Positions 1,911-32,225 of a DNA stretch of 64,000 nucleotides are shown here, in pieces (position 1 is the stretch's first letter; the number at the start of each line of letters is the position of its first letter). Source of the stretch: Tubiluchus corallicola. Taxonomy: Eukaryota > Animalia > Priapulida. The DNA lies in contig JAQGDQ010000500.1 in NCBI GenBank assembly GCA_030141605.1, positions 98,300 through 162,299 on the forward strand, in the 5' to 3' direction. The notes below the pieces were generated by a model. It made no database searches. It was not told the DNA's origin and saw only the letters and a list, made by a program, of their open reading frames with translations. Both the position numbers and the translations under genes were made by a program.

Positions 1911-1967
1911 TATACGTTAGTGAAATTATGAAGCTTATAAAATTAGTAGCATAAGTAACAACAACAA

Positions 1968-6167: not shown

Positions 6168-6215
6168 GGAGAGAGAGAGAAAGAAAGAAGGGAAAAAGAT
6201 GGCAGACAGAAAGTG

Positions 6216-6252
<37 letters not shown>

Positions 6253-8339: not shown

Positions 8340-9866
8340 TTTGAACGACAGAAATTTTTCTTTAGTATGACTTAAGACATCTGATATGGTAGTTCCATTG
8401 ATAGGCTTCCTTGTTTCGGTTTAGTTACTGTTACTTTCTACAATCATTACAGTTTTAATTAGACAAAATCAGACAATTCATAAAATTAGTTCTCATTATC
8501 TATTTAGCTGTTTTTTATTTATTCATTTGTGTCTGACTTACTAGTAACAATTGTTCAAATTTCTGACATGTGTCTGGAAAAGAATCGGAAATGTTTGTCT
8601 ATGCACACATTCAATTTGGCCATAATAATGCGGTTCAATATTCCAACGAAGTGAACAAAAATGTAAACCCAAGCGTCAAAAATAATGGAATTGTAGTTTA
8701 AAAAGTTGAACAAACCTGGAAATATGTCTTTATATACAGTGTGTAGAAATCAGAGCTGATGGTATTGAAACTTTACAAATGCGGTGCTTTATTGAAACTA
8801 TCATAAAATATTTTGAAATCTGGTGAGTAGATTATAATGTAATTTTACATTTTGTTAATATAAGTCACCTTAGAGATAAGTATACATTTATCGCTTAGTT
8901 TAGAATACTATTATTGTAGCATTAAGTTTTATTGAAACTGAAATACTATAAAACATTTTAAAATGTGGAGACTAAATTATAATTATAAATTTGTCATTTT
9001 TTTAAATGTAAACATCCCTAAAGATAGGCATATTGTTTAACTCTCGGTTTAGAATATTGATATTGTGTGAGTCGTCACAATTAAAATGAAACTGAAATAA
9101 CAGAACAGATGGCCCAGTTTATCCTGGTGATTTCCCACATTGCCTGGAGCAAAAAGTGAAAAAATAGCAGATGACAATTCGCCGTGCTTGTAAATTCGGA
9201 TAATACCTCTTGCTTGACAACAGTTACGCGTGAGATACTTTCGAAAAATAATATCTAAGCTTCAGATGCCGACCATAAAATCGATGATCATGACTACGTG
9301 TTCAAAAGTTGTGACAAAATAAAAATTACTTTGTCAAGGTGGTCACTGGATGTGTTGTAGTGGCAATGAATGAAACAAACAGAAAATTTATTCCTGTTCA
9401 TTAACTGAAATCAGGCTGTTTCCGAATTTCGGTGCATCCCTCCTATGTTTAGATTTCTAGTAACCAGAGAGCTCTGGGGTAGTTTTTTTTGTTTTTAATT
9501 TGTGCCAAGACGTGACTGGAAAGAATTTTGTTGATCCAATTCAAAAGTGCTCATATCAGTTGGAAGAATGTAAATTTGATTGTGTTTATTGCAAAAATTT
9601 ACATTTTTTCTGTGTAGATTTAATATTATAAAAACAAGAAAACAGATTAGAATGTCGTGATAATTATTATGACAAAAGGATAGTATAATGTTCACATCTT
9701 GATTAATATGCTTTTAGATCATTCCTGTAATAAAGTCGCATGTTACGTATTGCAAGTATTGCGTGGGCGTGATGGCGGTCTTAGAATTTAATTATAATAT
9801 CATAATCACAAGGTTTTTATTATTTTAGCAACCAAAACTTAGAGAGATATTAGTTGAATATTCAAA

Positions 9867-12800
9867 ATGAGGTCATACCATACACTGCTGCATTTGATTG
9901 TTTTCCTGTTCATTAACTGTAAGTAAAAACAAACAATTATTTCTTAATGCCAGAGATATTTTTAGTCTACAGTAATGCAAGGAAAATTAGTTATATTATT
10001 TACCAGTTTCTCAGAAACATTGTATTTCAGTGCACAATTCTTATTGATAATTTAAACTCTAAACATTTGATTTGTTGCAATTACCATAATACTACATGGT
10101 TCCACATATTTTCCCTCCTCCTTGAAGTATTATGTGTAGTTATAAGATACTTGAGAGGATAATTTAAATGCCAAATACCCGTCTTGGAAAGCTTATTTTG
10201 TGTTAGCACACCACAAACAGTTTCATTAGAAGCAATTAAACTCAAATGTCGTCAACACTACACACAAACAACTGCAAATCATTCATTCTACAACGACACA
10301 CACATACAAAATTAACACCAACAGAAAAAGGTCATCAGGTGAAATTCAGATTTCTGTTCCTACTCACTATCTTCAACCTCTGTTCAACTCAATGGATGAA
10401 ATACAAGAACTATGCAGTTAAAATCAGCACCTAATCAATTATACCATTTTCCTCCTAAGCAAAATTACGTTGTTGGCAGGTTTGTGCTCGACGCTCATGG
10501 CAACAGTTGCTCTTCGTTGATGCAATGCCTGTTAAACTCTCATTCTAATTTATCTTTTTTTCAATTTCTTTTTATTAAATTCCTTATGTATGTAAAGCTT
10601 CTCATATTTTTACCAAAACCTTGTGAAAGTTTTAAAGTTTAATTGTGTTTCATTAACTATGAAAATAAAATTAATTGCTACTAATACTATGCAATTATTA
10701 AGTTTAATTACTATTTTAGACATACATAGTTCACTGCAGATAGTGGTCATATGCTTGCTACTGCAGCAGAGAATGTGAACCGACAAAGTAATGCTGTCAC
10801 ACTGTACACATGTTACTTATATGTACAATTTATATGACATACCTGTTTACATTTATATATATTGTACTGCAGGGCTGTGATGAAATAGTGTAATACTGGC
10901 AGGGGAATACAGCAGACTTCTCAGGTGTGCGTGTGAACGTGGCTTTAACTAGCACCTAGACTCTTATTCTGACCTTGTGTTAGTGGGAGCCACTAGTCAC
11001 GTGCACACCTGAGCTTATAAAAAGGGTAGGTCTGCTGTAGATCCTTGTCAGTGGTCATCTCATCTCAGCTCTGTTCACACTTCAGGCTTTGCTCTATTCG
11101 GTAACCTTTTTGGAATATTTTTTTTGGTAATAAATTGTCATTTTTATTTTATTGTTCATTTTGGTTTTTGGTTTTGGCATCGACCTACTTGAGACATGCC
11201 GCACGGTGTAGGTCGCGGTGCCATCCGTTCTGCCTCCATTAAAAGTGGAGAGCAGTCCATTATATATATATTATGTATGCATAATCATATATCTGTATAT
11301 GCTCACTTGGTTATAATATTCTATTTTTCAATTCAGTTGATTCATTACACATATTAGTCGTAGCAGCAAAATCTAAATTTCTTATATTTAAATTTGTATT
11401 TTTTACAGATGTACGAAGTGAATTACAATATTTTGAACAAGAACCTGAAGATGTTGCTACTCTTCCTGGAGAAAACGTTGTGGTACAGTGTGTAGTAAAA
11501 AGCGAGGTTCCACTAGGATATCAGTTTTTTTGGTTGCTTAACGACCAGATCATTGATGCAAACGTGGATGATAACTATACTTTTATTAACAGTAATCCTT
11601 ATAAGACTAGAAACTGGAGTATAAAGATTAAAGATGTAAACTTAGATCAACGTGATGGTTCCTATCACTGCCGAGTGAATGTTTTTGGTGAAGGAGGAGG
11701 AAATGATGAGTCAAACAAAGGAAATGTAACTGTTGTTGGTGAGTCAGTATTTTTAATTACCACTTTTCAATTTTTTAAATAAATCAGTAATTATACAAGT
11801 TGACATTAATCTGTACAATATGATGTATTGTAATTACATTTACATTTACATATGATATGTTCAGATTTGATTTCCGCATATTAGATAATAAGAGTTTGTA
11901 AGTTTTACAGGAGGAAGTTAAAGTATGAATTGTCACAGTTTTGTAACACAACACCTGCTGTGATGCAGCTGCAGTTGATGATGATATAGAATCAGGTTTT
12001 GCATTCTTGTTTATATTGTTCATTAGTACTATTTTCCAAAAAGTTTTAACTTTTAAAGTAGATGCTTCATTTGTTAGTTTTTGTCTTTATCAATTTTTGT
12101 TGTAAAATTTAAGATGTGAGTAAAGTTTAGAGGTTCATTAACCTGGAAAATAAAATTTATTACTAGTTTAAACAAATGTAATTCACTGCGTTAGTGACCA
12201 CATGCCTACTAGTAGCAAATGCTGACAAGACAATGCTGTCACACTGTATATACGTCACTTATGTGTACAAGTTGTAGAAGTTGAGATAAAGTATGAAATA
12301 TCATAGAGAGTAGTGACACAATAGGTGCCCTGATGCATATTATTTTTTATTTACCATCTATCACACATTATATGATTTGATAATAAAGATTAGTCCAAGG
12401 CCAAGAGTAGAAATGACCAGTTTTTACCCATATAGAGTAAGAGACAGTGACAGCGGCAAACAACTCTGCAATAGTATTGAGTCAATGGAAAGCTGCCATT
12501 ATTATGGAGCAGGTCCTGAGTGCTCTTCATTGGCATTCAGTCCTTATCTATTTAGACAACATCATAGTCTATGGCTGAACTGTTGAGAGTACCTCTTCCG
12601 CTTCCAGGAAGCCCTCGTGCACCTAGAAAAAGCTGAGCTGAAATGAAATGCTAAAAAATGTCTTCTCACACAGAAAGAAGTTACTTACCTTTATTACATT
12701 GTTTCTTCTGATAGTGTCAAGACTGATCTTACTAAAACTGAAGCAGTTTATAATTGGCCCCAACATCAAAACATGAAGCAACTTTCGCAGACTGTGTACT

Positions 12801-15800
12801 TACTATAGGCACTTTTTTGCATCACATCACATCAGATTGCATGACTTCACTTCACATCACTTCACATCACTTTACATCACATCACATCACATTGCATCAT
12901 ATTATATTACATAATATTATTTAGTACCAGCCTAGTATTTTCGCTACTAATTCCACTTCCCTTCTCACTGTCTTTGTGTCTCCTCTAGAAACTCTTTAGC
13001 CATTGCTCATGAGACTAGACCTGAAACAAGATTACACTGTGATTATTCAGCTATTTTGCTTTTCTCTGGACGCTTTTTTCTTTTCCTTTTGTATTTATTT
13101 TCTTTATTTATCCTAATTCATATTTTAGCAAGGGGTATTTGATTTAGTTTTCATTATTTATTCACTTAATTGTAACTTAATTAATTCTTTCATATCTGAC
13201 TTTTGTGTATAATATAGTAACTGTTGTGTAGAAACGTTATCTCTGACGTGTATCTAGGAAATATTTGAAAATGTGTTTGTGAACTAATTTAAAGTCATAA
13301 TTATAATAGTTCCAGCAACTATCAGTATGCTGCTGAATGATGTGCCACATGTGAAACCCTCCATTACAGTTGAAGTAGAAGACATCTCTAATCAGCTCAA
13401 ATGTGAAGCCATAAGCAACTGCAAAGTTCTGCCAACCATAAGTTGGTTTATTGGTAATATCTTTCTAATTATTATTTACTTTAATGATCTATGTAACTTA
13501 ATCTGTTTCGATATAAATTAATCATATAATATCATCATCTTCATCATCACCACCTGACTAAGTTACTGCCTACATCAACACACACACCATGCCAGCTTTT
13601 ATCCAATCCTTGTCACCAGAACCACCACTACTACAGTAGCCTTTACTTAAACTATATTAAAATATTTTTAAATAGATTATTGTTGACATAAAGAAAATAT
13701 TAGGTGTGCGTTCGGTGCATTAAGTCAAAAACCTATTTATACTCCACATATTTTCTTGTTATCATCAGGTTATAATTTATATTACATGCAGGTTCAGCTC
13801 CTGTCAACTCTCATTCAGAAACTATGCTGGATCTAAACACCAATTTTACTAATGTTGTGAGCACAATGGATGATTATTCATTTAAACCTGAAGACAATGG
13901 AAAGCAGCTGACCTGTCAGGTTTTTATACATGACATTTTGTCAAAACAGTTTATTAACAAGACACTAAATGTACAATGTAAGTTGAATTTTTATTTATCT
14001 ATCTTACTGCTAGATGTAAGTAAAATTTTCAGACAGAGTGTCCATGTTACAACAACCACATTAGGAACACGTTTTAAACACTGTGTATTGAAGAAGTGTA
14101 TGTAGCATGCTGCAAATGACCTTGATGGGTCTGGGTCTTTTAGGATGAAAAAGTGAAGTAAAATTGAACAATAAATAAAAGTAACATTAAAATCAAAATT
14201 ATTGTTAATGATGTTGCAAATCCACAATTTTTTAGTTTTGATGCCCAGGCTTTTCTTTTTTCTTTGACTATCTTTCTCTTTACCCTCTTTCCCTGTATCT
14301 CTCCTTCTGTCTTGTCTTGCATCCTGCTATATAAGGAGATACGTTTTTGATACAGATATCAAATCAGTTACCGTGAAATTGCCTAACGGAGATGATACTA
14401 AGATTACAGTTGGCAGTGGCTTTGAGCTGATTTGTGATGCAAGTGGAAACCCAGAACCTTCTTATCAGTGGAGTGGTCCTAATTTGTCAAGTGGAAACAC
14501 CGGCAAAAAAGTTACGAAGAAAAAAGCTGAATTAGTTGATGGAGGGACCTACACTTGTACAGCTAGGAATGTTGTTGGAGAGAGAAAAGGCAGCTTAACT
14601 ATAAAAATTGTAAAAGAGGGTGACAAGGAAGAAAGCGGTGATAAAGAAAATGGTGGTGGGGGATCTGGAGATGGGGATAATGGTAAGTGCATTGATTAAG
14701 AACCTAAGAGAATTAACCTTGCAAAAAAACAAAAATGGTTGTTAGTTATGAAATAGTTTTGTTTCTGTTACCGGAGTGTCGTACATTTTCATTTGCGATT
14801 GATGATTGAAAGTAGTACTACCAATAATTAAACATGTGCTGGCACCTACATTTAAGATTGTTCACTATTGTAGCTTAATTTAAGTTTAATGAAGAGTGAT
14901 AGAGTGAGATTGAATTATTTTATATTAATTAATTAATTAATTATGCACATCATGTGATCAATAAGCTCAACAAATTGTTTAACATTAAGTCCGTGCTTAT
15001 ACAATGTTGTAATATTAAGCACACTTGTTGTAATTAATGGTCAATGACATCAGCTGCCCTTTTTCCTAGAATCAATGTTAACAGCTGCGTCAGGGCAATG
15101 ATTTCCTAGAAAGAGCAATGACCAGCTGCACACAGTTCTTAGAAACTGTTACAGGGCAATGAATCACTGTGCTCATTTCCCTATTTCCTGGAAACAGTAA
15201 TGACCAGATGTGCTCATTTCACTATTTCCTGGAAACAGTAATGACCAGATGTGCTCATTTCCCTATTTCCTGGTAACAGTAATGACCAGATGTGCTCATT
15301 TCCCTATTTCCTGGATACACTTATGACCAGATGTGCTCATTTCCGTATGTCCTGGATACAGTTATGACCAGATGTGCTCATTTCCGTAATTCCTGGAAAC
15401 AGTAATGACCAGATGTGCTCATTTCCCTACTTCCTGGTAACAGTAATGACCAGATGTGCTCATTTCCCTATTTCCTGGATACAGTTATGACCAGATGTGC
15501 TCATTTCCGTAATTCCTGGTAACAGTAATGACCAGATGTGCTCATTTCTCTACTTCCTGAAAACAGCAATAACCAGATGTGCTCATTTCTCTACTTCCTG
15601 AAAACAGCAATAACCAGATGTGCTCATTTCTCTACTTCCTGGATACAGTAATGACCAGATGTGCTATTTCCTTATTTTCTGGATACAGCAATGACCGGTT
15701 GTGCTGACTTCCTTGAAATAGCCATTAACACCTGCATCCAGTTCTTGGAAATAGTCGCATAAGGGCAACGACTCACTTCTAGGAAACACCCTAGCAGCTG

Positions 15801-16335
15801 CATAGTCCTGCCTATACAGCCAATCAGCAACAAAATGCTCTGACCAATAAGACTCAAGCTGACCACTGACCAGAACTTGGTTGACAGTATTCCTTTCAGA
15901 TTATTACAAATTTTTTAAATTTTTTTAATCAAAGAGAGAACGAATGATGTTACGTAAAGTATTTCAAAGAATTTTTTGATAGATCATGACCGTAATAATA
16001 TGTTGATAATGCAAAGAATTTTAACCTTGTAATTAAAATTAGCTTCGATGTATATTGATTATTAATGGTGTACTTGTCCTGGGACTTACATTTTAAGTTT
16101 ATTGATTCTAGCCCTATGCATTTGGGAGTTAAGAAGAATTAAATAGTTGAAAATTGAATGCCTAACATCATGATGAAAAACCAGCATAAGGGCTGCAGCT
16201 CCTACATCTATGACTTTAGTCACAAGCATTAACATTCTTGATTTTGTTTCAGGGCAAAATGGTTGCAATTTTCCGAGAGAGAACTTGTTTGGACACGTTG
16301 TTATTCTCACCGTTATTGTTTATTTTGTTAGATGA
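9867..16335 (+). CDS. Ig-superfamily surface protein copy 1 (signal peptide, V, C2-like, I/C2, stalk, GPI-type tail; 373 aa; nectin/CADM-like domain order)
   Basis: Exons 9867-9918, 11409-11738, 13310-13453, 13792-13977, 14356-14682 and 16253-16335; all introns GT-AG and phase 1, giving 1122 nt open. MRSYHTLLHLIVFLFIN signal; Ig motifs VQC..W..DGSYHC, LKC..ISW..LTCQV.H and LIC.ASGNP.PSYQW..DGGTYTC; tail QNGCNFPRENLFGHVVILTVIVYFVR*. Confidence 0.88.
10876..11257 (+). mobile_element. LTR-like remnant in intron 1 (also ~26895-27277 in copy 3)
   Basis: Starts TGTGATG, contains TATAAAAG and AATAAA, and is followed by gTGGAGAGCAGT resembling a primer-binding site. The canonical CA end is not clear. 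Confidence 0.4.
12590..12800 (+). mobile_element. Gypsy-type reverse transcriptase remnant in intron 2 (copy 1)
   Basis: Same sequence as 28620-28810 but with an in-frame stop. Confidence 0.65.
15165..15720. repeat. 41-bp intronic minisatellite (copy 1, ~13 units)
   Basis: Unit atgaccagatgtgctcatttccctatttcctgg(a/t)aacagta recurs at 15200, 15241 and onward. Confidence 0.95.
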
Positions 16336-17178
16336 GTCAGAATTTATGCTTAAACTAAAATGTATGTGATTTTAAAACTTTTGTGTATTGTGTAAATAAT
16401 GTTATCATTGTATGGAAATAGTTGCCCTGTGTCTGTACAAAATAGGCCTATCTTACCTTAGTCAGTTTAAGTCTGAGGTTAAATTATAATAACATATAGT
16501 TGTGGTTTCTTTCGTCAATGTCCAGCCAAACAAAATTTATTAACTTGTTTGTAGCTGTTGTTGTACTCTCTAAATTTTTGTTTACAGTAAAAAATTTAGT
16601 TTCTGAACTTATGTGCACATTTCAAAGTAGATTAAATTTAATGAGTTTTAGTTTTATTACATGTGTATTTTGATGGAACATTTTAATGTGATTTTATGTT
16701 TTTGAATCATGATTATAAGAATTGGGTGCAAAGATCATCATTTTAATGATGGCTGTTACAGGATGAACAGTGATGAACTAAAGTAGTGTATTATAGTTGT
16801 ACAGAAAATTAATATCTGAAAGAAAAGTTTCTACTGAATATGGTACCCACACGTAGCTATAAAACAATAACATATATATCTAAGGTTTTTTCCCTGAGCA
16901 ACGAATATTACTTTCGTTACTTTGACAAAGGTTTACAACACACCGTCATGCCCTTCTAAACAAAGTAAAATCATGTCACACAAAATAAATGAGAAATTAC
17001 TTAAATTATAGCGGTTTCGGCAGTAAAGCAGCATAACATGTTCATCCTCTTTGTACACGGTTTTTTGTTTATAAAGTGCACATTTGAAGCAAGGTGGCAG
17101 TAGTGCTGCACAAAGTTGATAATCTCTACTATGCGATGGCCTCTTCAGTCGTTTAACTATTAATTACTTTTTGCAAAT

Positions 17179-17420
17179 TTACTGTGAGTTGTTGACACAT
17201 TTCAATCGATGATTGCAGAGACCTATGCAAACAGAGCAAGATCTTCCAAGGTTAGTGCACTGAAATGCTGAAGCATCTTTAGTACAATTCTTCCTTCTTT
17301 GACGCTTCTCTTCCCATAGTAGCTGAAGCCTATCTTCGTTGTGCTTCACCCCATCAAACAGTGGCATCTGCCAAGTTTCCCTGTCTGAAGTTGCTGTTTC
17401 CAGTTTTTGGCAATTACGTA
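17179..17420 (-). mobile_element. RTE-clade LINE C-terminal remnant (unit 2)
   Basis: Paralog of 8097-8339. Confidence 0.75.
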
Positions 17421-18917
17421 CAATGAACGAGAGTAAAGTTTTATTTAGTATGACTTAAGACATCTGATATGGTGGTCTCATTGATAGGCTTCCTTATTTC
17501 GGTTCAATTTCTGTTGCAATCTTTTTTATAACAATTTGAAATAATAATAATTCAAACATGCTAAAATAAACAATCTACAGTTTCTACAATCATCACAATT
17601 TTAATTAAAAAACAAATTTTCTGGAAAACTTTACATGCAGTTTAATTCCATGTAAAGCTTGATGCTGTTTGACTTCCATCACTAAGAACGCACAAGATCT
17701 ATTCAGTATTAAACTGCTTCTGCCCTCTGGATGCTCTGGAAACAATTTCTGTTTTCTGTCCTGTTTTTCGTTTTTTTCCCTCTATTTATCTTGTTTAACC
17801 TGTGCACACTTGTTTATCTGTTTGTTTTAGTTCTCATTTATTTAGCTGTTTTTTTCATTTGTGGCTGACTTATTGGTAACAATTGTGCACATTTCTGACA
17901 TGTATCTGGAAAAGAACCGGAAATGTTTGTCTATGCACACATTCAATTTGGCCATAATAATGCGGTTCAATATTCCAACGAAGTGAACAAAAATGTAAAC
18001 CCAAGCGTCAAAAATAATGGAATTGTAGTTTAAAAAGTTGAACAAACGTGGAAATATGTCTTTATATACAGTGTGTAAAAATTTGATCTGATGCCATTTG
18101 AAACTTTACGAATGCAGTGCTTTGTTGAAACTATCATAAAAGATTTTGAAATTTGGTGAGTAGGTTATAATGTAATTTTACATTTTGTTAATATAAGTCA
18201 CCTTAGAGATAAGTATACATGTAACTCTTGGTTTAGAATATTGTCATTGTAGCATTAAGTTTTGTTGAAACTGAAATACTGTAAAACATTCTAAAATGTG
18301 GAGACTAAAGTATAATTATACATTTCATATTTTTTTAAATGTAAACATCCCTAAAGATGGGCATATTATTTAACTCTCCGTTCAGAATATTGATATTGTG
18401 TGAGTCGTCAGAATTGAGATGAAACTGAAATACAGAAATGATGGCCAGTTTCTCCTGGTGATTTCCCACATTGTCTGGAGAAAAAGTCAAATAGCAGATG
18501 ACAAATCGCCGTGCTTGTAAATTCGGATAATACGTCTAGCTTGTCAACAGTTATGCGTGAGATACTTTCCAAAAAAATAACTAAACTTCAGATGCCGATC
18601 ATAAATTCGATGATCATGATTACGTGTTCAAAAGTTGTGACAAAATAATATTGTAAATAATATAATAGATTTAATATTGTAAATACAAGAACACAGATTA
18701 GAATGTCGTAATAATTATTATGACAAAAGATTAGTATAATGTTCACATCTTGATTAATATGCTTTTAGATCATTCCTGTAATAAAGTCGCATGTTAAGTA
18801 TTGCAAGTATTGCGTGGGCGTGATGGCGGTCTTAGTATTTAATTATAATATTATAATCACAAGGTTTTTATTATTTTAGCAACCAAAACTTAGAGAGATA
18901 TTAGTTGAATATTCAAA

Positions 18918-21900
18918 ATGAGGTCATACTATACACTGCTGCATTTGATTGTTTTCCTGTTCATTAACTGTAAGTAAAAACAAAAAATTATTTCTTAATG
19001 TCAGAGATACTTTTACTCTATAGTAATGCAAAGAACAACTAGTTACATTATTTCCCAGTTTCTCAGAAACATTGTATTTCCACTAGGGGGCAAAAACCAA
19101 AAAATGGGGGTCGGGAACAGAAATGCATCGAGTGTCTACGAATACTACCATGTAGAACATCAAATAAAAGGTCTCGATGAGGCGAATCGAATGGCATCGG
19201 TTACAGTGTGAATCGTTAACCTGTGACCCAGTTAGGGGCAAAATAGGGGTCGAGGAGACAAATGACTCCAGGGTCTACCAAAAGCAGGTTGTTGTATATC
19301 AAATGAAAAACCTCAATGAGACAAACTGAATGATATAAGTTATGGCAAGATTTTTGATCTTTGACCCGTGGGTGGATGGGCTGAACAGTTAAATGCTGAG
19401 GCTTCATTGTGAAATACACTTTCCATGTATTCAAGCAATTCAATAAAAGAATAGAGCATTTTTAAAAAAGGCTGTCATCTCTTCATTTTTAAAGCTGAAT
19501 TTTACAACTATTGTTTGCAAAATGTTCAGTTTCTGACCCGGTCAGAAACATTGTTAGCTGGTTTATTTCCTTTTTATAACGAAAAGTCCTGTTATATAAT
19601 TCATGTTACCACAGAAATGTTCCTAGTAGATTAAATACGGTCATTAGGTGAACCTTGCCTTAGTCCCTTACCTTATCTTAGCTGTGACTGTCTCTAACTT
19701 AATCACGTTTGTCAGCTTGAGACTTGATGTTAACATGAGCTTTAATACATATAAGTTAAAATTTCCAAACCTGTGATTACTTGGTTAAATTCTTGATTTG
19801 CAGGTGTGCAGGATGAAACACAAGCAACATCTTTTTTACAAGAACCCGAGGATGTTGTTGCTCTTCCTGGAGGTGAAGTTCAGCTAGCATGTGTGCTAGA
19901 AAGTGATTCTATCCAACCTGGTTTCAGTGTTACCTGGTTTCTTAATGATGAACAGCAAGTCATAGATCGTGTAAACTTCATGTTTGTTGACAGTGATCCT
20001 GGTGCCAGTGGAGACCTTAGTATAAAAGTTCTGAATATAAATGTAAATCAACGGGATGGGACCTATTACTGCAGGTATAGCGAATATACTGGAAAATTTG
20101 AAAACTCACGTAAAGTAGAAGTTACTGTTGTTGGTAAGTATGTAAGACATTCTTAGTTACTTTTAATACTTTTGCTCAGTATTTTATTCAGGGCTTCTGA
20201 TCTTTTGTGATCATGGAAAATGGACAGAATTCACATGGGCAACTGAAACAGCTGCGAAAAACAGAATTAGTCTAATTTAGTTTTCATTATTTATTCACTT
20301 AATTGTTGCTTAATTAATTCATTCATATCTGACTTAGTGTGTATAATATAGTAACTGTTGTGTAGAAACGTTATCTCTGACGTGTATCTAGGAAATATTT
20401 GAAAATGTGTTTATGAACTAATTTAAAGTCGTAATTATAATAGTTCCAGCAACTATCAGTATGCTGCTGAATGATGTGCCACATGTGAAACACTCGATTA
20501 CAGTTGAAGTAGAAGACATCTGTAATCAGCTCAAATGTGAAGCCATAAGCAACTGCAAAGTTCTGCCAACCATAAGTTGGTTTATTGGTAATATCTTTCT
20601 AATTATTATATACTTTAATGATCTATGTAACTTAATCTGTTTTGATATAAATTAATCATATCATATCATCATCTTCATCATCACCACCTGACTAAGTTAC
20701 TGCTTACATCAACACACATGCCATGCCAGCTTTTATCATATCCTTGTCACCAGCACCACCTTACTACAGTAGCCCTTACTTAAACTATATTAAAATATTT
20801 TTAAATAGATTATCATTGACATAAAGGAAATATTAAGTGTACATTAGGTGCATTAAATCAAAAACCTATTTATACGCCACATATTTTCTTGTTATCATCA
20901 GGTTATAATTTATATTACATGCAGGTTCAGCTCCTGTCAACTCTCGTTCAGAAACTATGCTGGATCTAAACACTAATTTTACTAATGTTGTGAGCACATT
21001 GGATGATTATTCATTTAAACCTGAAGACAATGGAAAACAGCTGACCTGTCAGGTTTTTATACATGACATTTTGTCAAAACAATTTATTTACAGGACACTA
21101 AATGTACAATGTAAGTTAAATTTTTATTAATCTATGTTACTGCTAGATGTAAGTAAAATTTTCAGACCGAGTGTTCATGTTACAACCACCACATAAGGAA
21201 CACGTTTTAAACACTGTGTATTGAAGAAGTGTATGTAGCATGCTGCAAATGACCTTGATGGGTCTGGGTCTTTTAGAGTGAAAAAGTGAAGTAAAATTGA
21301 ACAGTAAATAAAAGTAACATTAAAATCAAAATTATTGTTAATGATGTTACAAATCCACAATTTTTTAGTTTTGATGTCCAGGCTTTTCTTTTTTTCTTTG
21401 ACTCTCTTTCTATTTATCCTCTTTCCCTGTATCTCTCCTTCTGTCTTGTCTTGCATTCCTGCTATATATAAGGAGATACGTTTTTGATACAGATATTACA
21501 TCTGTTACCGTGAAATTGCCCAATGGAGATGATACTAAGATTACAGTTGGCAGTGGCTTTGAGCTGATTTGTGATGCAAATGGGAACCCAGAACCTTCTT
21601 ATCAGTGGAGTGGTCCTAATTTGTCAAGTGGAAACACCGGCAAAAAAGTTACGAAGAAAAATGTGGAATTAGTTGACGGAGGGACATACACTTGTACAGC
21701 TAGGAATGTTGTTGGAGAGAGAAAGGGCAGCTTAACTATAAAAATTGTAAAAGAGGGTGACAAGGAAGAAAGCGGTGATAAAGAAAATGGTGGTGGGGGA
21801 TCTGGAGATGGGGATAATGGTAAGTGCATTGATTAAGAACCTAAGAGAATTAACCTTGCAAAAACACAGAAGTGGTTGTTAGTTATGCAATAGTTTTGTT

Positions 21901-23247
21901 TCTGTTACCGGAGTGTCGTACATTTTCATTTGCGATTGATAACTGAAAGTACTACTACCAATAATTAAACATGTGCTGGCACCTACATTTAAGATTGTTC
22001 ATTTTTGTAGCTTAATTTAAGTTTAATGAAGAGTGATAGAGTGAGATTGAATTATTTTATATTAATTAATTAATTATGCACATCATATAATCAATAAGCT
22101 CAACAAATTGTTTAACATTAAGTCCATTTTTATACAATGTTGTAATATTAAGCTCACTTGTTGTAATTAATGGTCAATGATATCAGCTGCCCTTTTTCCT
22201 AGAATCAATGTTAACAGCTGCGTCAGGGCAACGGCTTTCTAGAAAGAGCAATGACCAGCTGCACACAGTTCTTAGAAACTGTTACAGGGCAATGAATCAC
22301 TGTACTCATTTCCGTATGTCCTGGATACAGCAATGACCAGATGTGCTCATTTCCCTACTTCCTGGTAACAGTAATGACCAGATGTGCTCATTTCCCTATT
22401 TCCTGGATACAGGTATGGCCAGATGTGCTCATTTCCCTACTTCCTGGAAACAGTAATGACCAGATGTGCTCATTTCCCTATTTCCTGGATACAGTTATGA
22501 CCAGATGTGCTCATTTCCGTATGTCCTAGAAACAGCAATGACCAGTTGTGCTCATTTCCCTATTTCCTGGATATAGTTACGACCAGATGTGTTCATTTCC
22601 CTATTTCGTGGTTACAGCAACGACCAGTTGTGCTTACTTCCTAGAAATAGCCATTAACACCTGCATCCAGTTCTTGGAAACCGTCGCATCAGGACAAAGA
22701 CTCACTCCTAGGAAACACCCTAGCAGCTGCATAGTCCTGCCTATACAGCCAATCAGCAACAAAATGCTCTGACCAATAAGACTCAAGCTGACCACTGACC
22801 AGAACTTGGTTGACAGTATTCCTTTCAGGTTATTACAATTTTTTAATTTTTTTAATCAAAGAGAGAACGAATGATGTTACGTAAAGTATTTCTAAGAATT
22901 TTTTGATAAATCATAACCATTATACTATGTTGATAATGCAGAGAATTAATTAGCTTCAATGTATATTGATTATTAATGGTGTACTTGTCCTGGGACCTAC
23001 ATTTTAAGTTTATTGATTCTAGCCCTTTGCATTTGGGAGTTAAGAAGAATTAAATAGTTGAAAATTGAATGCCTAACATCAATGATGAAAAACCAGCATA
23101 AGGCCTGTAGCTCCTACATCTGTGAGTTTAGTTACAAGCATTAATGTTCTTGATTTTGTTCCAGGACAAAATGGTTGCAATTTTCCGAGAAAGACCTTGT
23201 TTGGACACGTTGTTATTCTCACTGTTATTGTTCATTTTATTAGATGA
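18918..23247 (+). CDS. Ig-superfamily surface protein copy 2 (373 aa) with a divergent V domain
   Basis: Exons 18918-18969, 19804-20133, 20444-20587, 20925-21110, 21493-21819 and 23165-23247; GT-AG, phase 1, open. V exon reads QEPEDVVALPGGEVQLAC...W...DLSIKV...QRDGTYYC...VEVTVV. Confidence 0.88.
22300..22650. repeat. 41-bp intronic minisatellite (copy 2, ~8 units)
   Basis: Same unit as 15165-15720, in a shorter array. Confidence 0.9.
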
Positions 23248-24084
23248 GTCAGAATTTATGCTTAAACTAAAATGTATGTGATTTTAAAACTTTTGTGTAT
23301 TGTGTAAATATTTTTATCATTGTATGGAAATAGTTGCCCTGAGTCTGTACAAAATAGGCCTATCTTACCTTAGTCAGTTTAAGTCTGAGGTTAAATTATA
23401 ATAAGATATAGTTGCAGTTTCTTCCATCAATGTCCAGCCAAACAAAATTTATTAACTTGTTTGTAGCTGTTGTTGTACTCTCTAAATTTTTGTTTACAGT
23501 AAATTTAGTTTCTGAACTTATGTGCACATTTCAAAGTAGATTAAATTTAATGAATTTTAGTTTTATTACATGTGTATTTTGATGGAACATTTTAATGTGA
23601 TTTTATGTTTTTGAATCATGATTATGAGAATTCGGTGCAAAGATCATCATTTTAACGATGGCTGTTAGAGGATGAACAGTGATGAACTAAAGTGTTGTTT
23701 TATAGTTGTGCAGAAAATTAATACCTGAAAGAAAATTTTCTACTGCGTATGCTACCTACACGTAGCTAAAACAATAACATATATATCTAAGATTTTTTCA
23801 CTGAGCAACGAATGTTACTTTCATTACTTTGACAAAGGTTTACGACACACCCTCATGTGCTTCTAAACGAACTAAGATCATGTCACACAAAATAAATGAG
23901 AAATTACTTAAATGGTAGCGGTTTCGACAGTAAAGCAGCATAACATGTTCGTCCTCTTTGTACACGGTTTTTTGTTTATAAAGTGACATTTGAAGCAAGG
24001 TGGCAGTAGTGCTGCACAAAGTTGATAATCTTTACTATGCGATGGCCTCTTCAGTTGTTTAACTATTAATTAGTTTTTGCAAAT

Positions 24085-24325
24085 TTACTGTGAGTTGTTG
24101 ACACATTTCAGTCGATGATTGCAGAGACCTACGCGAACAGAACAAGATCTTCCAAGGTTAGTGCACTGAAATGCTGAAGCATCTTTGGTACGATTCTTTC
24201 TTCTTTGACGCTTCTCTTCCCATAGTAGCTGAAGCCTATCTTCATTGTGCTTCACCACATCAAACAATGGCTTCCGCCAAGTTTCCCCGTCTGAAGTTGC
24301 TGCTTCCAGTTTTTGGCAATTACGT
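24085..24325 (-). mobile_element. RTE-clade LINE C-terminal remnant (unit 3)
   Basis: Paralog of 8097-8339. Confidence 0.75.
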
Positions 24326-25863
24326 ACAATGAACGAGAGTAAAGTTTTATTTAGTATGACTTAAGACATCTGATATGGTGGTTCCATTGATAGGCTTCCT
24401 TGTTTCGGTTTAGTTACTGTTACTTTCTACAATCATTACAGTTTTAATTAGACAAAATCAGACAATTAAAAAAATTAGTTCTCATTATCTATTTAGCTGT
24501 TTTTTATTTATTCATTTGTGTCTGACTTACTAGTAACAATTGTTCACATTTCTGACATGTGTCTGGAAAAGAATCGGAAATGTTTGTCTATGCACACATT
24601 CAATTTGGCCATAATAATGCGGTTCAATATTCCAACGAAGTGAACAAAAATGTAAAACCAAGCGTCAAAAATAATGGAATTGTAGTTTAAAAAGTTGAAC
24701 AAACCTGGAAATATGTCTTTATATACAGTGTGTAGAAATCAGAGCTGATGGTATTGAAACTTTACAAATGCGGTGCTTTATTGAAACTATCATAAAATAT
24801 TTTGAAATCTGGTGAGTAGGTTATAATGTAATTTTACATTTTGTTAATATAAGTCACCTTAGAGATAAGTATACATTTATCGCTTAGTTTAGAATACTAT
24901 TATTGTAGCATTAAGTTTTATTGAAACTGAAATACTATAAAACATTTTAAAATGTGGAGACTAAATTATAATTATAAATTTTTTATTTTTTTAAATGTAA
25001 ACATCCCTAAAGATAGGCATATTGTTTAACTCTCGGTTTAGAATATTGATATTGTGTGAGTCGTCACAATTAAAATGAAACTGAAATAACAGAACAGATG
25101 GCCCAGTTTATCCTGGTGATTTCCCACATTGCCTGGAGCAAAAAGTGAAAAAATAGCAGATGACAATTCGCCGTGCTTGTAAATTCGGATAATACGTCTT
25201 GCTTGACAACAGTTACGCGTGAGATACTTTCGAAAAATAATAATTAAGCTTCAGATGCCGACCATAAAATCGATGATCATGACTACGTGTTCAAAAGTTG
25301 TGACAAAATAAAAATTACTTTGTCAAGGTGGTCACTGGATGTGTTGTAGTGGCAATGAATGAAACAAACAGAAAATTTATTCCTGTTCATTAACTGAAAT
25401 CAGGCTGTTTCCGAATTTCGGTGCATCCCTCCTATGTTTAGATTTCTAGTAACCAGAGAGCTCTGGGGTAGTTTTTTTGTTTTTAATTTGTGCCAAGACG
25501 TGACTGGAAATAATTTTGTTGATCCAATTCAAAAGTGCTCATATCAGTTGGAAGAATGTAAATTTGATTGTGTTTATCGCAAAAATTTACATTTTTTCTG
25601 TGTAGATTTAATACTATAAAAACAAGAAAACAGATTAGAATGTCGTGATAATTATTATGACAAAAGGATAGTATAAAAACTATAATGTTCACATCTCGAT
25701 TAATATGCTTTTAGATCATTCCTGTAATAAAGTCGCATGTTACGTATTGCAAGTATTGCGTGGCTGTGATGGCGGTCTTAGTATTTAATTATAATATTGT
25801 AATCACAAGGTTTTTATTATTTTAGCAACCAAAACTTATTGAGATATTAGTTGAATATTCAAA

Positions 25864-28800
25864 ATGAGGTCATACCATACACTGCTGCATTTGATTGTTT
25901 TCCTGTTCATTAACTGTAAGTAAAAACAAAAAATTATTTCTTAATGTCAGAGATACTTTTACTCTATAGTAATGCAAAGAAAATCTAGTTACATTATTTA
26001 CCAGTTTCTCAGAAACATTGTATTTCAGTGCACAATTCCAAGTGATAATTTAAAACTCTAAACATTTGATTTGTTGCAATTATCATAATACTACATGGTT
26101 CCACATATTTTCGCTCCTCCCTGTAGTATTATGTGCAGTTACACATTACTTGAGAGGATAATTTAAATGCCAAATACCCATTTTGGAAAGCTTATTTTGT
26201 GTTAGCACACCACAAACAATTTCAGTAGAAGCAATTAAACTCAAACGTCGTCAACACTACACACAAACAACAAAAGGAGACAAACAACTGCAAATCATTC
26301 ATTCTACAACGGCACACACATACAAAATTACCACCAACAGAAAAAGGTCATCAGGTGAAATTCAGATTACTGTTCCTACTCACTATCTTCAACCTCCATT
26401 CAACTCAATGGATGAAATACAAGAACTATGCAGTTAAAATCAGCACCTAATCAATTATACCATTTTCCTCCTAAGCAAAATTACGTTGTTGGAAAGTTTG
26501 TGTAAAACTCTGCTCATGGTAACAGTTGCTCTTTGTTGATGCAACGCCTGTTAAACTCTCATTCTAATTTATCTTTTTTTCAATTTCTTTTTATTAAATT
26601 CCTTATGTATGTAAAGCTTCTCATATTTTTACCAAAACCTTGTGAAAGTTTTAAAGTTTAATTGTGTTTCATTAACTATGAAAATAAAATTAATTGCTAC
26701 TAATACTATGCAATTATTAAGTTTAATTACTATTTTAGACATACATAGTTCACTGCAGATAGTGGTCATATGCTTGCTACTGCAGCAGAGAATGTGAACC
26801 GACAAAGTAATGCTGTCACACTGTACACATGTTACTTATATGTACAATTTATATGACATACCTGTTTACATTTATATATATTGTACTGCAGGGCTGTGAT
26901 GAAATAGTGTAATGCTGGCAGGGGAATACAGCAGACTTCTCAGGTGTGCGTGTGAACGTGGCTTTAACTAGCACCTAGACTCTTATTCTGACCTTGTGTT
27001 AGTGGGAGCCACTAGTCACGTGCACACCTGAGCTTATAAAAAGGGAAGGTCTGCTGTAGATCCTTGTCAGTGGTCGTCTCATCTCAGCTCTGTTCACACT
27101 TCAGGCTTTGCTCTATTCGGTAACCTTTTTGGAATATTTTTTTTTGGTAATAAATTGTCATTTTTATTTTATTGTTCATTTTGGTTTTTGGTTTTGGCAT
27201 CGACCTACTTGAGACATACCGCACGGTGTAGGTCGCGGTGCCATCCGTTCTGCCTCCATTAAAAGTGGAGAGCAGTCCATTATATATATTATGTATGCAT
27301 AATCATATATCTGTATATGCTCACTTGGTTATAATATTCTATTTTTCAATTCAGTTGATTCATTACACATATTAGTCGTAGCAGCAAAATCTAAATTTCT
27401 TATATTTAAATTTGTATTTTTTACAGATGTACGAAGTGAATTACAATATTTTGAACAAGAACCTGAAGATGTTGCTACTCTTCCTGGAGAAAACGTTGTG
27501 GTACAGTTTGTAGTAAAAAGCGAGGTTCCACTAGGATATCAGTTTTTTTGGTTGCTTAACGACCAGATCATTGATGCAAACGTGGATGATAACTATACTT
27601 TTATTAACAGTAATCCTTATAACACTAGAAACTGGAGTATAAAGATTAAAGATGTAAACTTAGATCAACGTGATGGTTCCTATAACTGCCGAGTGAATGT
27701 TTTTGGTGAAGGAGGAGGAACTGATGAGTCAAACAAAGGAAATGTAACTGTTGTTGGTGAGTCAGTATTTTTAATTACCACTTTTCAATTTTTTAAATAA
27801 ATCAGTAATTATACAAGTTGACATTAATCTGTACAATATGATGTATTGTAATTACATTTACATTTACATATGATATGTTCAGATTTGATTTCCGCATATT
27901 AGATAATAAGAGTTTGTAAGTTTTACAGAAGGAAGTTAAAGTATGAATTGTCACAGTTTTGTAACACAACACCTGCTGTGATGCATCTACAGTTGATGAT
28001 GATATAGAATCAGCTTTTGCATTCTCGTTTGTATTGTTCATTAGTACTATTTTCCAAAAAGTTTTAATTTTTAAAGTAGATGCTTCAATTGTTAGTTTTT
28101 GTCTTTATCAATTTTTGTTGTAAAATTTAAGATGTGAGTAAAGTTTAGAGGTTCATTAACCTGGAAAATGAAATTTATTACTAGTTTAGACAAACGTAAT
28201 TCCACTGCGTTAGCGACAGCATGCCTACTAGTAGTAAATGCTGACAAGACAATGCTGTCACACTGTATATGTGGGTCACTTATGTGTACAAGTTGCAGAA
28301 GTTGAGATAAAGTATGAAATGTCATAGAGAGTAGTGACACAATAGGTGCCCTGATGCATATTATTTTTTATTTACCATCTATCACACATTATATGATTTG
28401 ATAATAAAGATTAGTCCAAGGCCAAGAGTAGAAATGACCAGTTTTTACCCATATAGTGTAAGAAACAGTGACAGCGGTAAACAACTCTGCAGTAGTATTG
28501 AGTCAATGGAAAGCTGCCATTATTATGGAGCAGGTCCTGAGTGCTCTTCATTGGCGTTCAGTCCTTATCTATTTAGACAACATCATAGTCTATGGCTGAA
28601 CTTTTGAGAGTACCTCTCCCTCTTCCAGGAAGCCTTCGTGCACCTAGAAAAAGCTGAGCTTAAATTAAATGTTAAAAAATGTCTTCTCACACAGAAAGAA
28701 GTTACTTACCTTTATTACATTGTTTCTTCTGATAGTGTCAAGACTGATCTTACTAAAACTGAAGCAGTTTATAATTGGCCCCAACATCAAAACTTGCAGC

Positions 28801-31800
28801 AACTTTTGCAGACTGTGTACTTACTAGAGGCGCTTTTTTACATTGCATCACTTCACATCACTTTACATCGCATCACTTCACATCACATCACATCACATTC
28901 CATCACTTCATATCACTTCACATCACTTTACATCACATCACATTACATTGCATCATATTATATTACATAATATTATTTAGTACCAGCCAAGTATTTTCAC
29001 TACTAGTTCTGCTTCCCTTCTCATTGTCTTTGTGTCTACTCTAGAAACTCTTTAGCCATTGCTCATGAGACTAGACCTGAAACAAGATTACACTGTGATT
29101 ATTCAGCTATTTTGCTTTTCTCTGGACGCCTTTTTCTTTTCTTTTTGTATTTTTTTCTTTATTTATCCTAATTCATATTTTAGCAAGGGGTATTTGATTT
29201 AGTTTTCATTATTTATTCACTTAATTGTTGCTTAATTAATTCTTTCATATCTGACTTAGTGTATATAATATAGTAACTGTTGTGTAGAAACGTTATCTCT
29301 GACGTGTATCTAGGAAATATTTGGAAATTTTGTTTATGAACTAATTTAAAGTCGTAATTATAATAGTTCCAGCAAATATTAGAATGCTGCTGAATGATGT
29401 GCCACATGTGAAACCCTCGATTACAGTTGAAGTAGAAGACATCTCTAATCAGCTCAAATGTGAAGCCAAAGGCAACTGCAAAGTTCTGCCTACCATAAGT
29501 TGGTTTATTGGTAATATCTTTCTAATTATTATATACTTTAATGATCTATGTAACGTATTCTGTTTTGATATAAATTAATCATATAATATCATCATCATCA
29601 TCATCATCATCACCACCTGACTAAGTTACTGCTTACATCAACACACACTCCATGCCAGCTTTTGTCATATTCTTGTCACCAGCACCACCACTACTACAGT
29701 AGCCCGTACTTAAACTATATTAAAATATTTTTAAATAGATTATCGTTGACATAAAGGAAATATTGTGTATGTTAGGTGCATTAAATCAAAAACCTATGTA
29801 TACGTCACCTATATATCATCAGGTTATAATTTATATTACATGCAGGTTCAGCTCCTGTCAACTCTCGTTCAGAAACTATGCTGGATCTAAAAACCAATTT
29901 TACTCATGTTGTGAGCACAATGGATGATTATTCATTTAAACCTGAAGATAATGGAAAGCAGCTGACCTGTCAAGTTTTTATACATGACATTTTGTCAAAA
30001 CAGTTTATTAACAGGACACTAAATGTACAATGTAAGTTAAATTTTTATTAATCTATCTTACTGCTAGATGTAAGTAAAATTTTCAGACCGAGTGTCCATG
30101 TTACAACAACCACATTAGGAACACGTTTTAAACACTGTGTATTGAAGAAGTGTATGTAGCATGCTGCAAATGACCTTGATGGGTCTGTGTCTTTTAGAAT
30201 GAAAAAGTGAAGTAAAATTGAACAATAAATAAAAGTAACATTAAAATCAAAATTATTGTTAACGATGTTACAAATCCACAATTTTTTAGTTTTGATGTCC
30301 AGGCTTTTCTTTTCTTCTTTGACTATCTTTCTCTTTACCCTCTCGCCCTGTATCTCTCCTTCTGTCTTGTCTTGCATTCCTGCTATATATTAGGAGATTC
30401 GTTTTTGATACAGATATTACATCAGTTACCGTGAAATTGCCTAATGGAGATGATACTAAGATTACAGTTGGCAGTGGCTTTGAGCTGATTTGTGATGCAA
30501 GTGGAAACCCAGAACCTTCTTATCAGTGGAGTGGTCCTAATTTGTCAAGTGGAAACACCGGCAAAAAAGTTACGAAGAAAAATGCGGAATTAGTTGATGG
30601 AGGGACATACACTTGTACAGCTAGGAATGTTGTTGGAGAGAGAAAAGGCAGCTTAACTATAAAAATTGTAAAGGAAGGTGACAAAGAAGAAAGTGGTGAT
30701 AAAGAAAATGGTGGTGGGGGATCTGGAGATGGGGATAATGGTAAGTGCATTGATTAAGGACCTAAGAGAATTAACCTTGCAAAAACACAAAAATAGTTGT
30801 TAGTTATGTAATAGTTTTGTTTCTGTTACCGGAGTGTCGTACATTTTCATTTGCGATTGATAACTGAAAGTAGTACTACCAATAATTAGACATGTGCTGA
30901 CACCTACATTTAAGATTGTTCATTTTTGTAACTTAATTTAAGTTTAATGAAGAGTGATAGAGTGAGATTGAATTATTTTATATTAATTAATTATGCACAT
31001 CATGTGATTAATAAGCACAACAAATTGTTTAACATTAAGTCCATTCTTATAAAATGTTGTAATATTAAGCACATTTGTTATAATTAATGATCAATGACAT
31101 CAGCTGCCCTTTTTCCTAGAATCAATGTTAACAGCTGCGTCAGGACAATGGCTTCCTAGAAAGAGCAATGACCAGCTGCACACAGTTCTTAGAAACTGTT
31201 ACAGGGCAATGCCTCACTGTGCTCATTTCCCTGTTTCCTGGAAACAGTTATGAACAGATGTGCTCATTTCCCTATTTCCTGGAAACAGTTATGACCAGAT
31301 GTGCTCATTTCCCTACTTCCTGGATACAGTTATAACCAGATGTACTGATTTCCCTACTTCCTGGAAACAGTTATGACCAGATGTACTCATTTCCCTATTT
31401 CCTGGATACAGTTATGACCTAGTTATGACCAGATGTACTGATTTGCCTACTTCCTGGATACAGTTATGACCAGATGTACTGATTTCCCTACTTCCTGGAT
31501 ACAGTTATAACCAGATGTACTGATTTCCCTACTTCCTGGAAACAGTTATGACCAGATGTACTCATTTCCCTATTTCCTGGATACAGTTATGACCTAGTTA
31601 TGACCAGATGTACTGATTTGCCTACTTCCTGGATACAGTTATGACCAGATGTACTGATTTCCCTACTTCCTGGATACAGTTATGACCAGATGTACTCATT
31701 TCCCTATTTCCTGGATACAGTTATGACCAGATATGCTTACTTTCTAGAAATAACCGAAATCACCTGCATCCACTTCTTGGCTTCGTTGACAGCTTTCCTT

Positions 31801-32225
31801 TCAGATTATAATTTTTCAAATTTTTTTAAACAAAGAGTGAACGAATTATGCAAAGTAATTCTAAGAATTTTTTGATAAATCATAAAAAATAAACAAATTA
31901 ATACTATGTTGATAATGCAAAGAATTAATTAGCTTCAATGTATATTGATTACTAATGGTGTACTGATCCTGGGACCTACATTTTAAGTTTATTGATTCTA
32001 GCCCTTTGCATTTGGGAGTTAAGAAGAATTAAATAGTTGAAAATTGAATGCCTAACATCATGATGAAAAACCAGCATAAGGCCTGTAGCTCCTACATCTA
32101 TGACTTTATTCACAAGCACTAATGTTCTTTATTTTGTTTCAGGACAAAATGGTTGCAATTTTCCGAGAGCGTTCTTGATTGGACACGTTGTTATTCTCAC
32201 TGTTATTGTTCATTTTGTCAGATGA
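25864..32225 (+). CDS. Ig-superfamily surface protein copy 3 (373 aa; first V-domain Cys replaced by Phe)
   Basis: Exons 25864-25915, 27427-27756, 29367-29510, 29846-30031, 30414-30740 and 32143-32225; GT-AG, phase 1, open. TGT>TTT at 27507-27509. Confidence 0.85.
28620..28810 (+). mobile_element. Gypsy-type reverse transcriptase remnant in intron 2 (copy 3)
   Basis: LEKAELKLNVKKCLLTQKEVTYLYYIVSSDSVKTDLTKTEAVYNWPQHQN matches the Gypsy RT C-terminus LxxAGLKLxxxKCxFxxxEVxYLGHxVSxxGVxTDPxKxxAVxxWPxPxN. Confidence 0.75.
31218..31750. repeat. 41-bp intronic minisatellite (copy 3, ~13 units)
   Basis: Same family, carrying the copy-specific variant gtactgatt. Confidence 0.9.

What the first reader, a model, noticed from the sequence alone, without database searches (positions are those of the whole stretch)
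19081..20273. Swapped V-domain cassette on a near-invariant Ig receptor backbone
Seen: the three tandem genes share near-identical signal, domain 2, domain 3, stalk and tail exons and adjacent introns. Copy 2 loses homology abruptly after cattgtatttc (19080) and regains it at atttagttttcattatt (~20275). A ~1.2-kb block replaces the ~3.1-kb block of copy 1 (~10030-13141). It holds a different V exon of the same length (330 nt) and phase, only roughly 40% identical in amino acids by eye, with Cys, Trp and DGxYxC intact. Established: the distal V domain sets binding specificity in nectin/CADM, Dpr/DIP and Hydractinia Alr proteins. Inference: old, diverged V exons sit on a homogenised constant part, either by cassette exchange or by gene conversion that spares the V exon. 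This could be an undescribed variable/constant recognition family (immune, allorecognition or adhesion code).
Basis: partly seen in the sequence, partly recalled or inferred. Interest (0 to 1): 0.88.

Follow-up and report, generated by a model that had tools for sequence, protein, structure and literature searches.

The report
Swapped binding exon in receptor triplet
One of three neighbouring, about 95% identical genes for a likely lipid-anchored surface protein of an unidentified animal carries a much older, different exon for the outermost domain, which likely entered by a recent cut-and-join event and would give the same stalk a new binding tip, as happens in some known recognition-gene families.

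Summary
Three tandem six-exon genes each encode 373 aa: signal, V, C2, I-type Ig, acidic Gly stalk and a GPI-type tail (inferred). Copy 2's 1,194-nt block (19081-20274) replaces a 3.1-kb block and holds an in-frame 330-nt V exon, 45% identical in protein. Synonymous divergence is about 0.8 in V against 0.1 in the constant exons, so this V is far older than its backbone. Identity stays at background up to both junctions, so the joins look young; the left one cuts a Helitron-like repeat at a 4-nt microhomology. Copies 1 and 3 share two 99% tracts, one over V: conversion also acts here. Public DNA contigs of other individuals hold this V and at least four more V types, but also backbones only 80-88% alike; which V sits on which backbone is not shown, nor is splicing of the copy-2 V. 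Best reading (0.45): recent illegitimate exon swap from an older paralogue. Rivals: loss of alternate exons from a two-V ancestor, or conversion that spares V. The pattern is known from CEACAM, Alr2 and protocadherins; the family has no close database relative.

The parts
9867..16337 (+). Copy 1 gene: exons 9867-9918 (signal), 11409-11738 (V1), 13310-13453 and 13792-13977 (C2-type domain 2), 14356-14682 (I-type domain 3 and stalk), 16253-stop (hydrophobic tail)
   Evidence: in-frame 373 aa, GT-AG introns; Pfam per exon
18918..23249 (+). Copy 2 gene: exons 18918-18969, 19804-20133 (V2), 20444-20587, 20925-21110, 21493-21819, 23165-stop
25864..32227 (+). Copy 3 gene: exons 25864-25915, 27427-27756 (V1 type, first Cys replaced by Phe), 29367-29510, 29846-30031, 30414-30740, 32143-stop
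19081..20274 (+). Copy-2 cassette, 1,194 nt: repeat fragment, 242 nt own intron, V2 exon, 141 nt own intron
   Evidence: no homology of its intron parts to the copy-1 block above shuffles
19804..20133 (+). V2 exon, V-set Ig domain, 109 codons
   Evidence: Pfam V-set 31 bits, cutoff 26; AlphaFold pLDDT 86; best folds Kirre/Neph1/SYG-1/CAR D1; present in runs X1, X3, X2
19081..19561 (+). 3' part of a high-copy, Helitron-like non-autonomous element, cut off at its 5' side by the left junction; hairpin 19529-19549, end CTGG then T
   Evidence: summed depth 35,000-54,000 in X1 against about 200 for single contigs; many contigs with loose ends before 19077 and behind 19554, the latter ending in CTAG then T; hairpin; criteria from PMC4778049 passages
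19077..19080 (+). Left junction: 4-nt microhomology (TTTC) shared by the intron and the repeat
   Evidence: other copies of the repeat lay from 19077 and run on upstream, copies 1 and 3 match to 19080
20272..20276 (+). Right junction: copy 2 reads CTAA then T; shared intron starts at 20275
   Evidence: X1 record 8 lays from 20275 with 0 differences and 2 letters left over
10029..13141 (+). Copy-1 cassette with V1 (copy 3: 26027-29196)
10527..11910 (+). Conversion-like tract over V1: 99.3% identical between copies 1 and 3 (26546-27928)
   Evidence: 8 of 1169 columns differ against 93-96% background, permutation p<=0.001
8560..9460 (+). Second conversion-like tract, upstream region, 99.2% identical between copies 1 and 3
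   Evidence: 7 of 901 columns differ
7667..32943 (+). Whole array: three units, with a fourth copy of a ~350-nt 3' segment, so the segment stands at both ends (7667-7993, 16701-17075, 23610-23982, 32590-32943)

Best explanation
Copy 2 is a hybrid gene in which an old V exon, likely taken from an older paralogue, was likely joined to this backbone by two recent non-homologous (microhomology-type) joins in introns 1 and 2, giving a predicted GPI-anchored three-Ig surface protein whose binding tip would differ from that of copies 1 and 3. Shown: the anatomy, the age gap between V and backbone, the sharp junctions, conversion tracts between copies 1 and 3, more V types in the species. Inferred: the joins arose as one template-switch repair or as two deletions in an A-B-A run of paralogues, each step in frame because all introns are phase 1; unequal crossing over and conversion keep the backbones alike; the V domain binds through its loops as Kirre, CAR, nectin and CEACAM first domains do; a partner or pathogen favours having several tips.
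For: V1/V2 dS 0.82, dN 0.44; constant exons dS 0.09-0.12, dN 0.025-0.033; protein trees: path copy 1 to copy 2 is 2.5 changes per column in V, 0.03 in the constant part. 26 identical bases run into the left junction and 32-46 out of the right, with no decay in 25-column bins: the joins look no older than the backbone split. The left join cuts a repeat at a 4-nt microhomology. No remnant of the other V in any copy. Candidate donors exist: in X1/X3 a V contig 81% alike to V2 and others 80% alike, and backbone contigs 80% and 88% alike (records 6, 7; X2 record 15). In X1 a contig identical to copy 2's intron end stops fitting at exactly 20275 (record 8): the same breakpoint seen from the other side. 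V2 keeps frame, splice sites and fold; V1/V2 dN<dS, p=0.014. Loops differ more than framework, 9 of 38 vs 35 of 64 identical.
Against: No donor gene was seen: no genome is held and the contigs are too short to link V to backbone. Two in-frame non-homologous joins are a rare outcome, and the same two scars are explained by two deletions under both rivals. No listed contig bridges either junction with 31 letters on both sides (tables were cut). Loops diverging faster is expected of any old pair. V differences between copies 1 and 3 (4 nonsynonymous, 0 synonymous) include loss of a core Cys, which fits decay as well as diversification.
Confidence: 0.45

Rival explanations
1. Splice isoform separation: the ancestor carried V1 and V2 in tandem as either-or exons; after duplication copy 2 deleted V1 (scar at 19080, into the repeat) and the ancestor of copies 1 and 3 deleted V2 (scar at 13141).
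For: Needs only two ordinary deletions; gives young sharp junctions, an old V split on a young backbone, equal exon length and phase. Documented: 11 cases in vertebrates (PMC4494069, abstract and section 7).
Against: No two-V gene and no decayed second V in the window. Backbone contigs are at least as plentiful as V types in X1 (depth is no copy number), so single-V genes suffice. Copies 1, 2 and 3 are equidistant in the constant part, which leaves a narrow window for a loss shared by 1 and 3, unless spread by conversion.
Confidence: 0.22
2. Long-term concerted evolution: V1 and V2 genes are old neighbours; conversion and unequal crossing over overwrote everything except the V exon, which selection protected; later deletions in copy 2's introns sharpened the edges.
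For: Conversion tracts are present in this cluster. Precedents: fugu protocadherins with a discrete boundary (PMC1852091 passages), bovine CEACAM32 converted in leader and intron but not the N exon (PMC7042247 passages), TEs and large indels stop conversion (PMC3924837 passages). In X1/X3 the intron piece 19556-19694 is one contig deeper than the V2 contig, and likeness falls towards the exon (93%, 88%, 81%) in other contigs, a hint of homogenised introns round diverging exons. Copy 2's introns are the shorter ones.
Against: No rise in divergence towards either boundary, which old barriers would be expected to show; needs homogenisation for the whole V1/V2 age plus two deletions. Linking of the contigs is by position and depth only.
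Confidence: 0.22
3. Helitron 3' transduction: the element read through its end, carried V2 and 141 nt beyond into intron 2 of a V1 gene at an A/T site, and a later deletion removed V1 and the element's 5' part.
For: The element points into V2; the right junction reads CTAA then T at an AT site (CTRR-then-T occurs at 0.3% of positions in the array); read-through capture is shown for Helraiser (PMC4778049 passages).
Against: The element's own hairpin and CTRR end are intact; the candidate hairpin before the right junction folds no better than shuffles, 81 of 200 as good; post hoc; needs a landing in the matching intron of a paralogue plus a deletion.
Confidence: 0.06
4. Assembly chimera of two loci.
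For: No listed contig bridges a junction; one junction lies in a high-copy repeat.
Against: Two joins that restore frame; copy 2 has its own variants on both sides; V2 and the bases up to 20275 are covered in X1 and X3, and the breakpoint at 20275 recurs in X1.
Confidence: 0.04

Closest known systems
Primate CEACAM1/3/5/6 N-domain shuffling (PMC8860441, abstract and section 8 read) and bovine CEACAM32 (PMC7042247, passages)
   Same: Tandem IgSF surface genes whose N-terminal V-type exon has a history separate from the rest; bonobo CEACAM1 differs about 20% in N and 2% elsewhere; some members GPI-anchored (recalled).
   Different: There the exchange is homologous conversion between N domains about 80% alike; here the two V domains are 45% alike and the joins lie in non-homologous intron. 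No sequence evidence of CEACAM membership; function unknown here.
Hydractinia Alr2 and adjacent pseudogenes (PMC8282982 and PMC9546547, passages)
   Same: Invertebrate cluster; one exon per V domain; exons shuffled by conversion or unequal crossing over; domain 1 sets binding.
   Different: Alr proteins lack the Cys-Trp-Cys pin, have an Fn3-like region, a transmembrane helix and tails with ITAM/ITIM; Alr paralogues are very divergent overall. This family has the pin and no tail.
Clustered protocadherins, regional homogenisation (PMC1852091, PMC3966226, passages)
   Same: Divergent N-terminal part, near-identical C-terminal part, discrete boundary.
   Different: Boundary inside one large exon; variable exons share one spliced constant region; cadherin fold.
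Splice isoform separation after duplication (PMC4494069, abstract and section 7)
   Same: Paralogues that each hold one of two old homologous exons.
   Different: Needs a two-exon ancestor, not seen here.
Nearest proteins: P0015, P0033, P0003, P0013 (unnamed) and Priapulus caudatus XP_014675978.1 'cell adhesion molecule 3-like'
   Same: Colinear V-C2-I triplet, 20-34% identity over 230-345 columns.
   Different: Too distant to name the animal or the family; P0033 has a transmembrane helix and a Tyr-motif tail; P0003 and P0013 repeat the triplet.

Membership tests
V-set Ig domain | Cys-Trp-Cys pin, DxGxYxC motif, V-type fold | tested here: met
   V2: Pfam V-set 31 bits above cutoff 26, model matches Kirre/CAR D1. 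V1 scores 23, below cutoff; copy 3 lacks the first Cys.
Nectin / CADM | Three Ig domains, V first | tested here: met
   (domain 2 only a weak C2-set_2 hit, E=0.034)
Nectin / CADM | Transmembrane helix and cytoplasmic tail (recalled) | tested here: not met
   Hydrophobic 15-mer ends one residue before the stop; no consensus donor in the last exon
IgLON / DIP / Lachesin | Three Ig domains and GPI anchor (recalled) | tested here: inconclusive
   Architecture fits; GPI inferred from hydropathy and small residues only; no GPI predictor on hand
IgLON / DIP / Lachesin | Closest sequence or fold matches are IgLON-type | tested here: not met
   Domain 3 ranks Robo and contactins above OBCAM, neurotrimin, NEGR1; V fold ranks Kirre, CAR, Neph1 first
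Kirre / Neph / SYG-1 | Five Ig domains, transmembrane helix, tail (recalled) | tested here: not met
   Three domains, no tail; only D1 fold likeness at 23-25% identity
Hydractinia Alr | V domain without the Cys pin; Fn3-like region; transmembrane helix and tail | tested here: not met
   Features; V1 and V2 have both Cys and Trp
Hydractinia Alr | Isoform-specific binding in trans | not testable with these tools
   needs cell aggregation assays
CEACAM | Vertebrate; N domain without disulfide (recalled); CEACAM as best match | tested here: not met
   V has two Cys; CEA-like hits only as generic Ig matches
Dscam / protocadherin variable-constant splicing | Several variable exons upstream of one shared constant region | tested here: not met
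   Each gene in the window has one V and its own constant exons; not testable genome-wide
Helitron (element in the cassette) | Hairpin about 10 nt before a CTRR end followed by T; high copy | tested here: met
   criteria
Helitron (element in the cassette) | 5' TC end after A; RepHel gene | not testable with these tools
   5' part is cut off by the junction; no coding part in 481 nt

The most novel reading that the evidence does not exclude
This animal keeps a repertoire of six or more ancient V exons that are moved as whole-exon cassettes onto one homogenised GPI-anchored backbone (or were spliced as alternatives from one gene), with copy number and V content differing between individuals: a germline variable/constant recognition code in an invertebrate IgSF family without a close known relative.
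Probability: 0.25. Interest if true: 0.8.

Novelty: new variant of a known kind. Interest (0 to 1): 0.5.

Why it matters
It is a clean natural experiment: two binding tips 45% alike on stalks 95% alike, so specificity can be assigned to one exon. It suggests that phase-matched Ig exons can be exchanged between paralogues too far apart for ordinary conversion. If the other V types share the backbone, it would add an invertebrate variable/constant recognition family to the short list (Alr, FREPs, VCBPs, Dscam; list recalled). If not, it is one hybrid gene in an ordinary fast-evolving cluster.

Tried and rejected
No genome held, so no genome-wide catalogue. Run search: no RNA holder listed. Homologue searches found no family member from this animal: V alignment, longer proteins, 0 of 861 candidates; mixed alignment, 7 hits, all distant or the query itself; P0015, only itself of 196; full HMMER scan, 71 hits, 0 below 1e-30. 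Metagenome scan: 80 loci kept, only generic Ig matches to domain 3, none to V or domain 2. 77 other ORFs gave no Pfam hit above cutoff, so the animal was not placed. Rfam: 0 matches. GC3 gives no clear conversion signal. A cryptic Helitron terminator at the right junction was not supported. X6 has no cover on the constant exons: a part without cover, not evidence. Paper searches listed no description of this family; with the animal unknown that is a weak negative. No supplements were opened.

Full report
Anatomy. The window holds three tandem units between 7667 and 32943. Each has a six-exon gene that splices in frame with GT-AG introns to 373 aa: signal peptide, V domain, a domain 2 split over two exons, an I-type domain 3 with an acidic Gly-rich stalk, and a 26-residue tail whose hydrophobic 15-mer ends one residue before the stop. 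That tail reads as a GPI signal; this is inference, no predictor was run. Pfam gives V-set for V2 above cutoff, Ig/I-set for domain 3 and a weak C2-set_2 hit for domain 2. The V2 model (pLDDT 86) matches first domains of Kirre, CAR, Neph1 and SYG-1 at 23-25% identity. The animal is not identified; the nearest named protein is a Priapulus caudatus 'CADM3-like' at about 26%, too far to place it.

The observation. Copy 2 matches copies 1 and 3 to 19080 and from 20275. Its 1,194-nt block holds a 330-nt V exon of the same phase, 47 of 104 aligned residues identical to V1. V1 against V2: dS 0.82, dN 0.44; constant exons: dS 0.09-0.12, dN 0.025-0.033; Fisher p=5e-11 on synonymous sites. Fast protein evolution alone cannot give that gap, so V2 has an older ancestry than its backbone. 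The opposite discordance holds for copies 1 and 3: 0 of 67 synonymous sites differ in V against 15 of 159 in the constant part (p=0.007), because two tracts of 99.2-99.3% (8560-9460 and about 10527-11910) stand in a 93-96% background (permutation p<=0.001). Conversion or crossing over therefore moves V-sized tracts between like copies here.

The junctions. The first 481 nt of the block are a high-copy repeat: summed depth 35,000-54,000 in run X1 against about 200 for single contigs. It has internal 139-nt units and a perfect hairpin at 19529-19549, ends CTGG then T, and other copies end CTAG then T: the marks of a Helitron 3' end (PMC4778049 passages). Other copies run on upstream of 19077, so the left junction cuts the element, with four bases shared by intron and element. 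Identity to copies 1 and 3 shows no decay towards either junction, with 26 identical bases on the left and 32-46 on the right. The cassette's own intron parts have no likeness to copy 1's block above shuffles, and no copy holds a remnant of the other V (9 of 9 tests not significant). I read the joins as young and non-homologous.

Other individuals. Six runs were listed, four holding part of the stretch, from two studies; I laid X1, X2, X5, X6 and X1, X2, X3, X5. All are short contigs, tables were cut, and depth is no copy number. V2 is present in X1 (296 nt, 1 difference), X3 (295 nt, 9 differences) and X2 (81 nt, 0 differences; another study). X1 differs from the window at many backbone sites, so it is another individual. 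Further V exons appear: a 269-nt contig with 50 differences, two of 122-130 nt with 24-26, and loose ends that read by eye in frame as different F-G loops (about YCQVQDFREV, in X1 and X2; CRISDYGEGT, in X1 and X3). With V1 (seen in X2) and V2 that is at least six types. X1 record 8 equals copy 2's intron end over 123 nt and stops fitting at 20275, which I take as the same breakpoint with another upstream block. Against the simple picture: backbone contigs only 80% and 88% alike exist too, so the other V types may sit on their own older backbones; no contig links them. No listed contig bridges a junction by 31 letters each side. For splicing, one contig of X6 (RNA is a guess; next to none of the window's words) joins the signal exon directly to a V1-like sequence, 26 of 30 letters alike by eye; there is no such evidence for V2.

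Mechanism. Shown: age gap, sharp joins, cut repeat, conversion tracts, more V types. Inferred: an old V exon was joined in by template switching or by two deletions in a run of paralogues (0.45). Phase-1 introns on both sides make any such join in frame. Splice isoform separation from a two-V ancestor needs only two deletions and is documented (PMC4494069 abstract and section 7), but no two-V gene is seen (0.22). Long conversion that spares V has good precedent and local support, but predicts decay towards the edges unless later deletions removed it (0.22). Helitron read-through rests on one 5-base coincidence and fails its hairpin test (0.06). Artefact 0.04. Function: the V domain likely sets binding, by analogy with its fold neighbours; loops are 9 of 38 identical against 35 of 64 in the framework, expected for any old pair. 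Four of 5 listed differences of the X3 allele (of 9 in all) and 4 of 4 between copies 1 and 3 change residues; that fits relaxed or diversifying selection and does not prove either, and one removes a core Cys. With no tail the protein cannot signal alone; an adhesion code or a pathogen-facing decoy are both open.

Comparison. It works like CEACAM N-domain shuffling (PMC8860441 abstract and section 8), Alr2 exon shuffling (PMC8282982 passages) and protocadherin regional homogenisation (PMC1852091 passages), but fails membership of each, and of nectins, Kirre and IgLONs, on at least one tested feature. What differs is the distance between the exchanged domains (45%) and joins outside homology. 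No close protein was found, and three paper searches listed no description; both negatives are limited.

Verdict. Real, well bounded, a new variant of a known kind. Interest 0.5; a many-V cassette system on one backbone remains possible (0.25) and would deserve 0.8.

Noticed in passing
window 27427-27756: Copy 3's V has Phe in place of the first Cys; the V1-type contig of X2 keeps the Cys. Copy 3 may be decaying or misfold.
   Followed up: partly
window 20444-20587: Copy 2's domain 2 has an extra Cys (Ser in copies 1 and 3); V1 has three N-glycosylation sequons, V2 none.
   Followed up: no
window 10633-10834 and 12121-12276: Direct repeats 73-79% alike flank the V1 exon in copies 1 and 3.
   Followed up: no
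window 15168-15712, 22301-22641, 31218-31732: 41-bp tandem repeat in intron 5 with 13, 8 and 12 copies.
   Followed up: no
   Followed up: no
window 20189-20260: A short stretch after V2 has loose ends in X1 at 20190 and 20233 and may be a piece of a second, low-copy repeat.
   Followed up: no
window 28608-28800 (and about 12600-12800): Reads like a retrotransposon polymerase remnant by eye; no Pfam hit.
   Followed up: partly
window 1861-2475, minus strand: Thr-rich, mucin-like open frame upstream of the array.
   Followed up: no
window 41340-42039 / 55204-55867 and 47023-47720 / 50007-50704: Two nested inverted duplications, 80-94% alike, among many satellite arrays.
   Followed up: no
P0033, P0003, P0013: Distant relatives have a transmembrane helix, one with many Tyr motifs in its tail, and two repeat the V-C2-I triplet: the wider group may include signalling receptors.
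   Followed up: no
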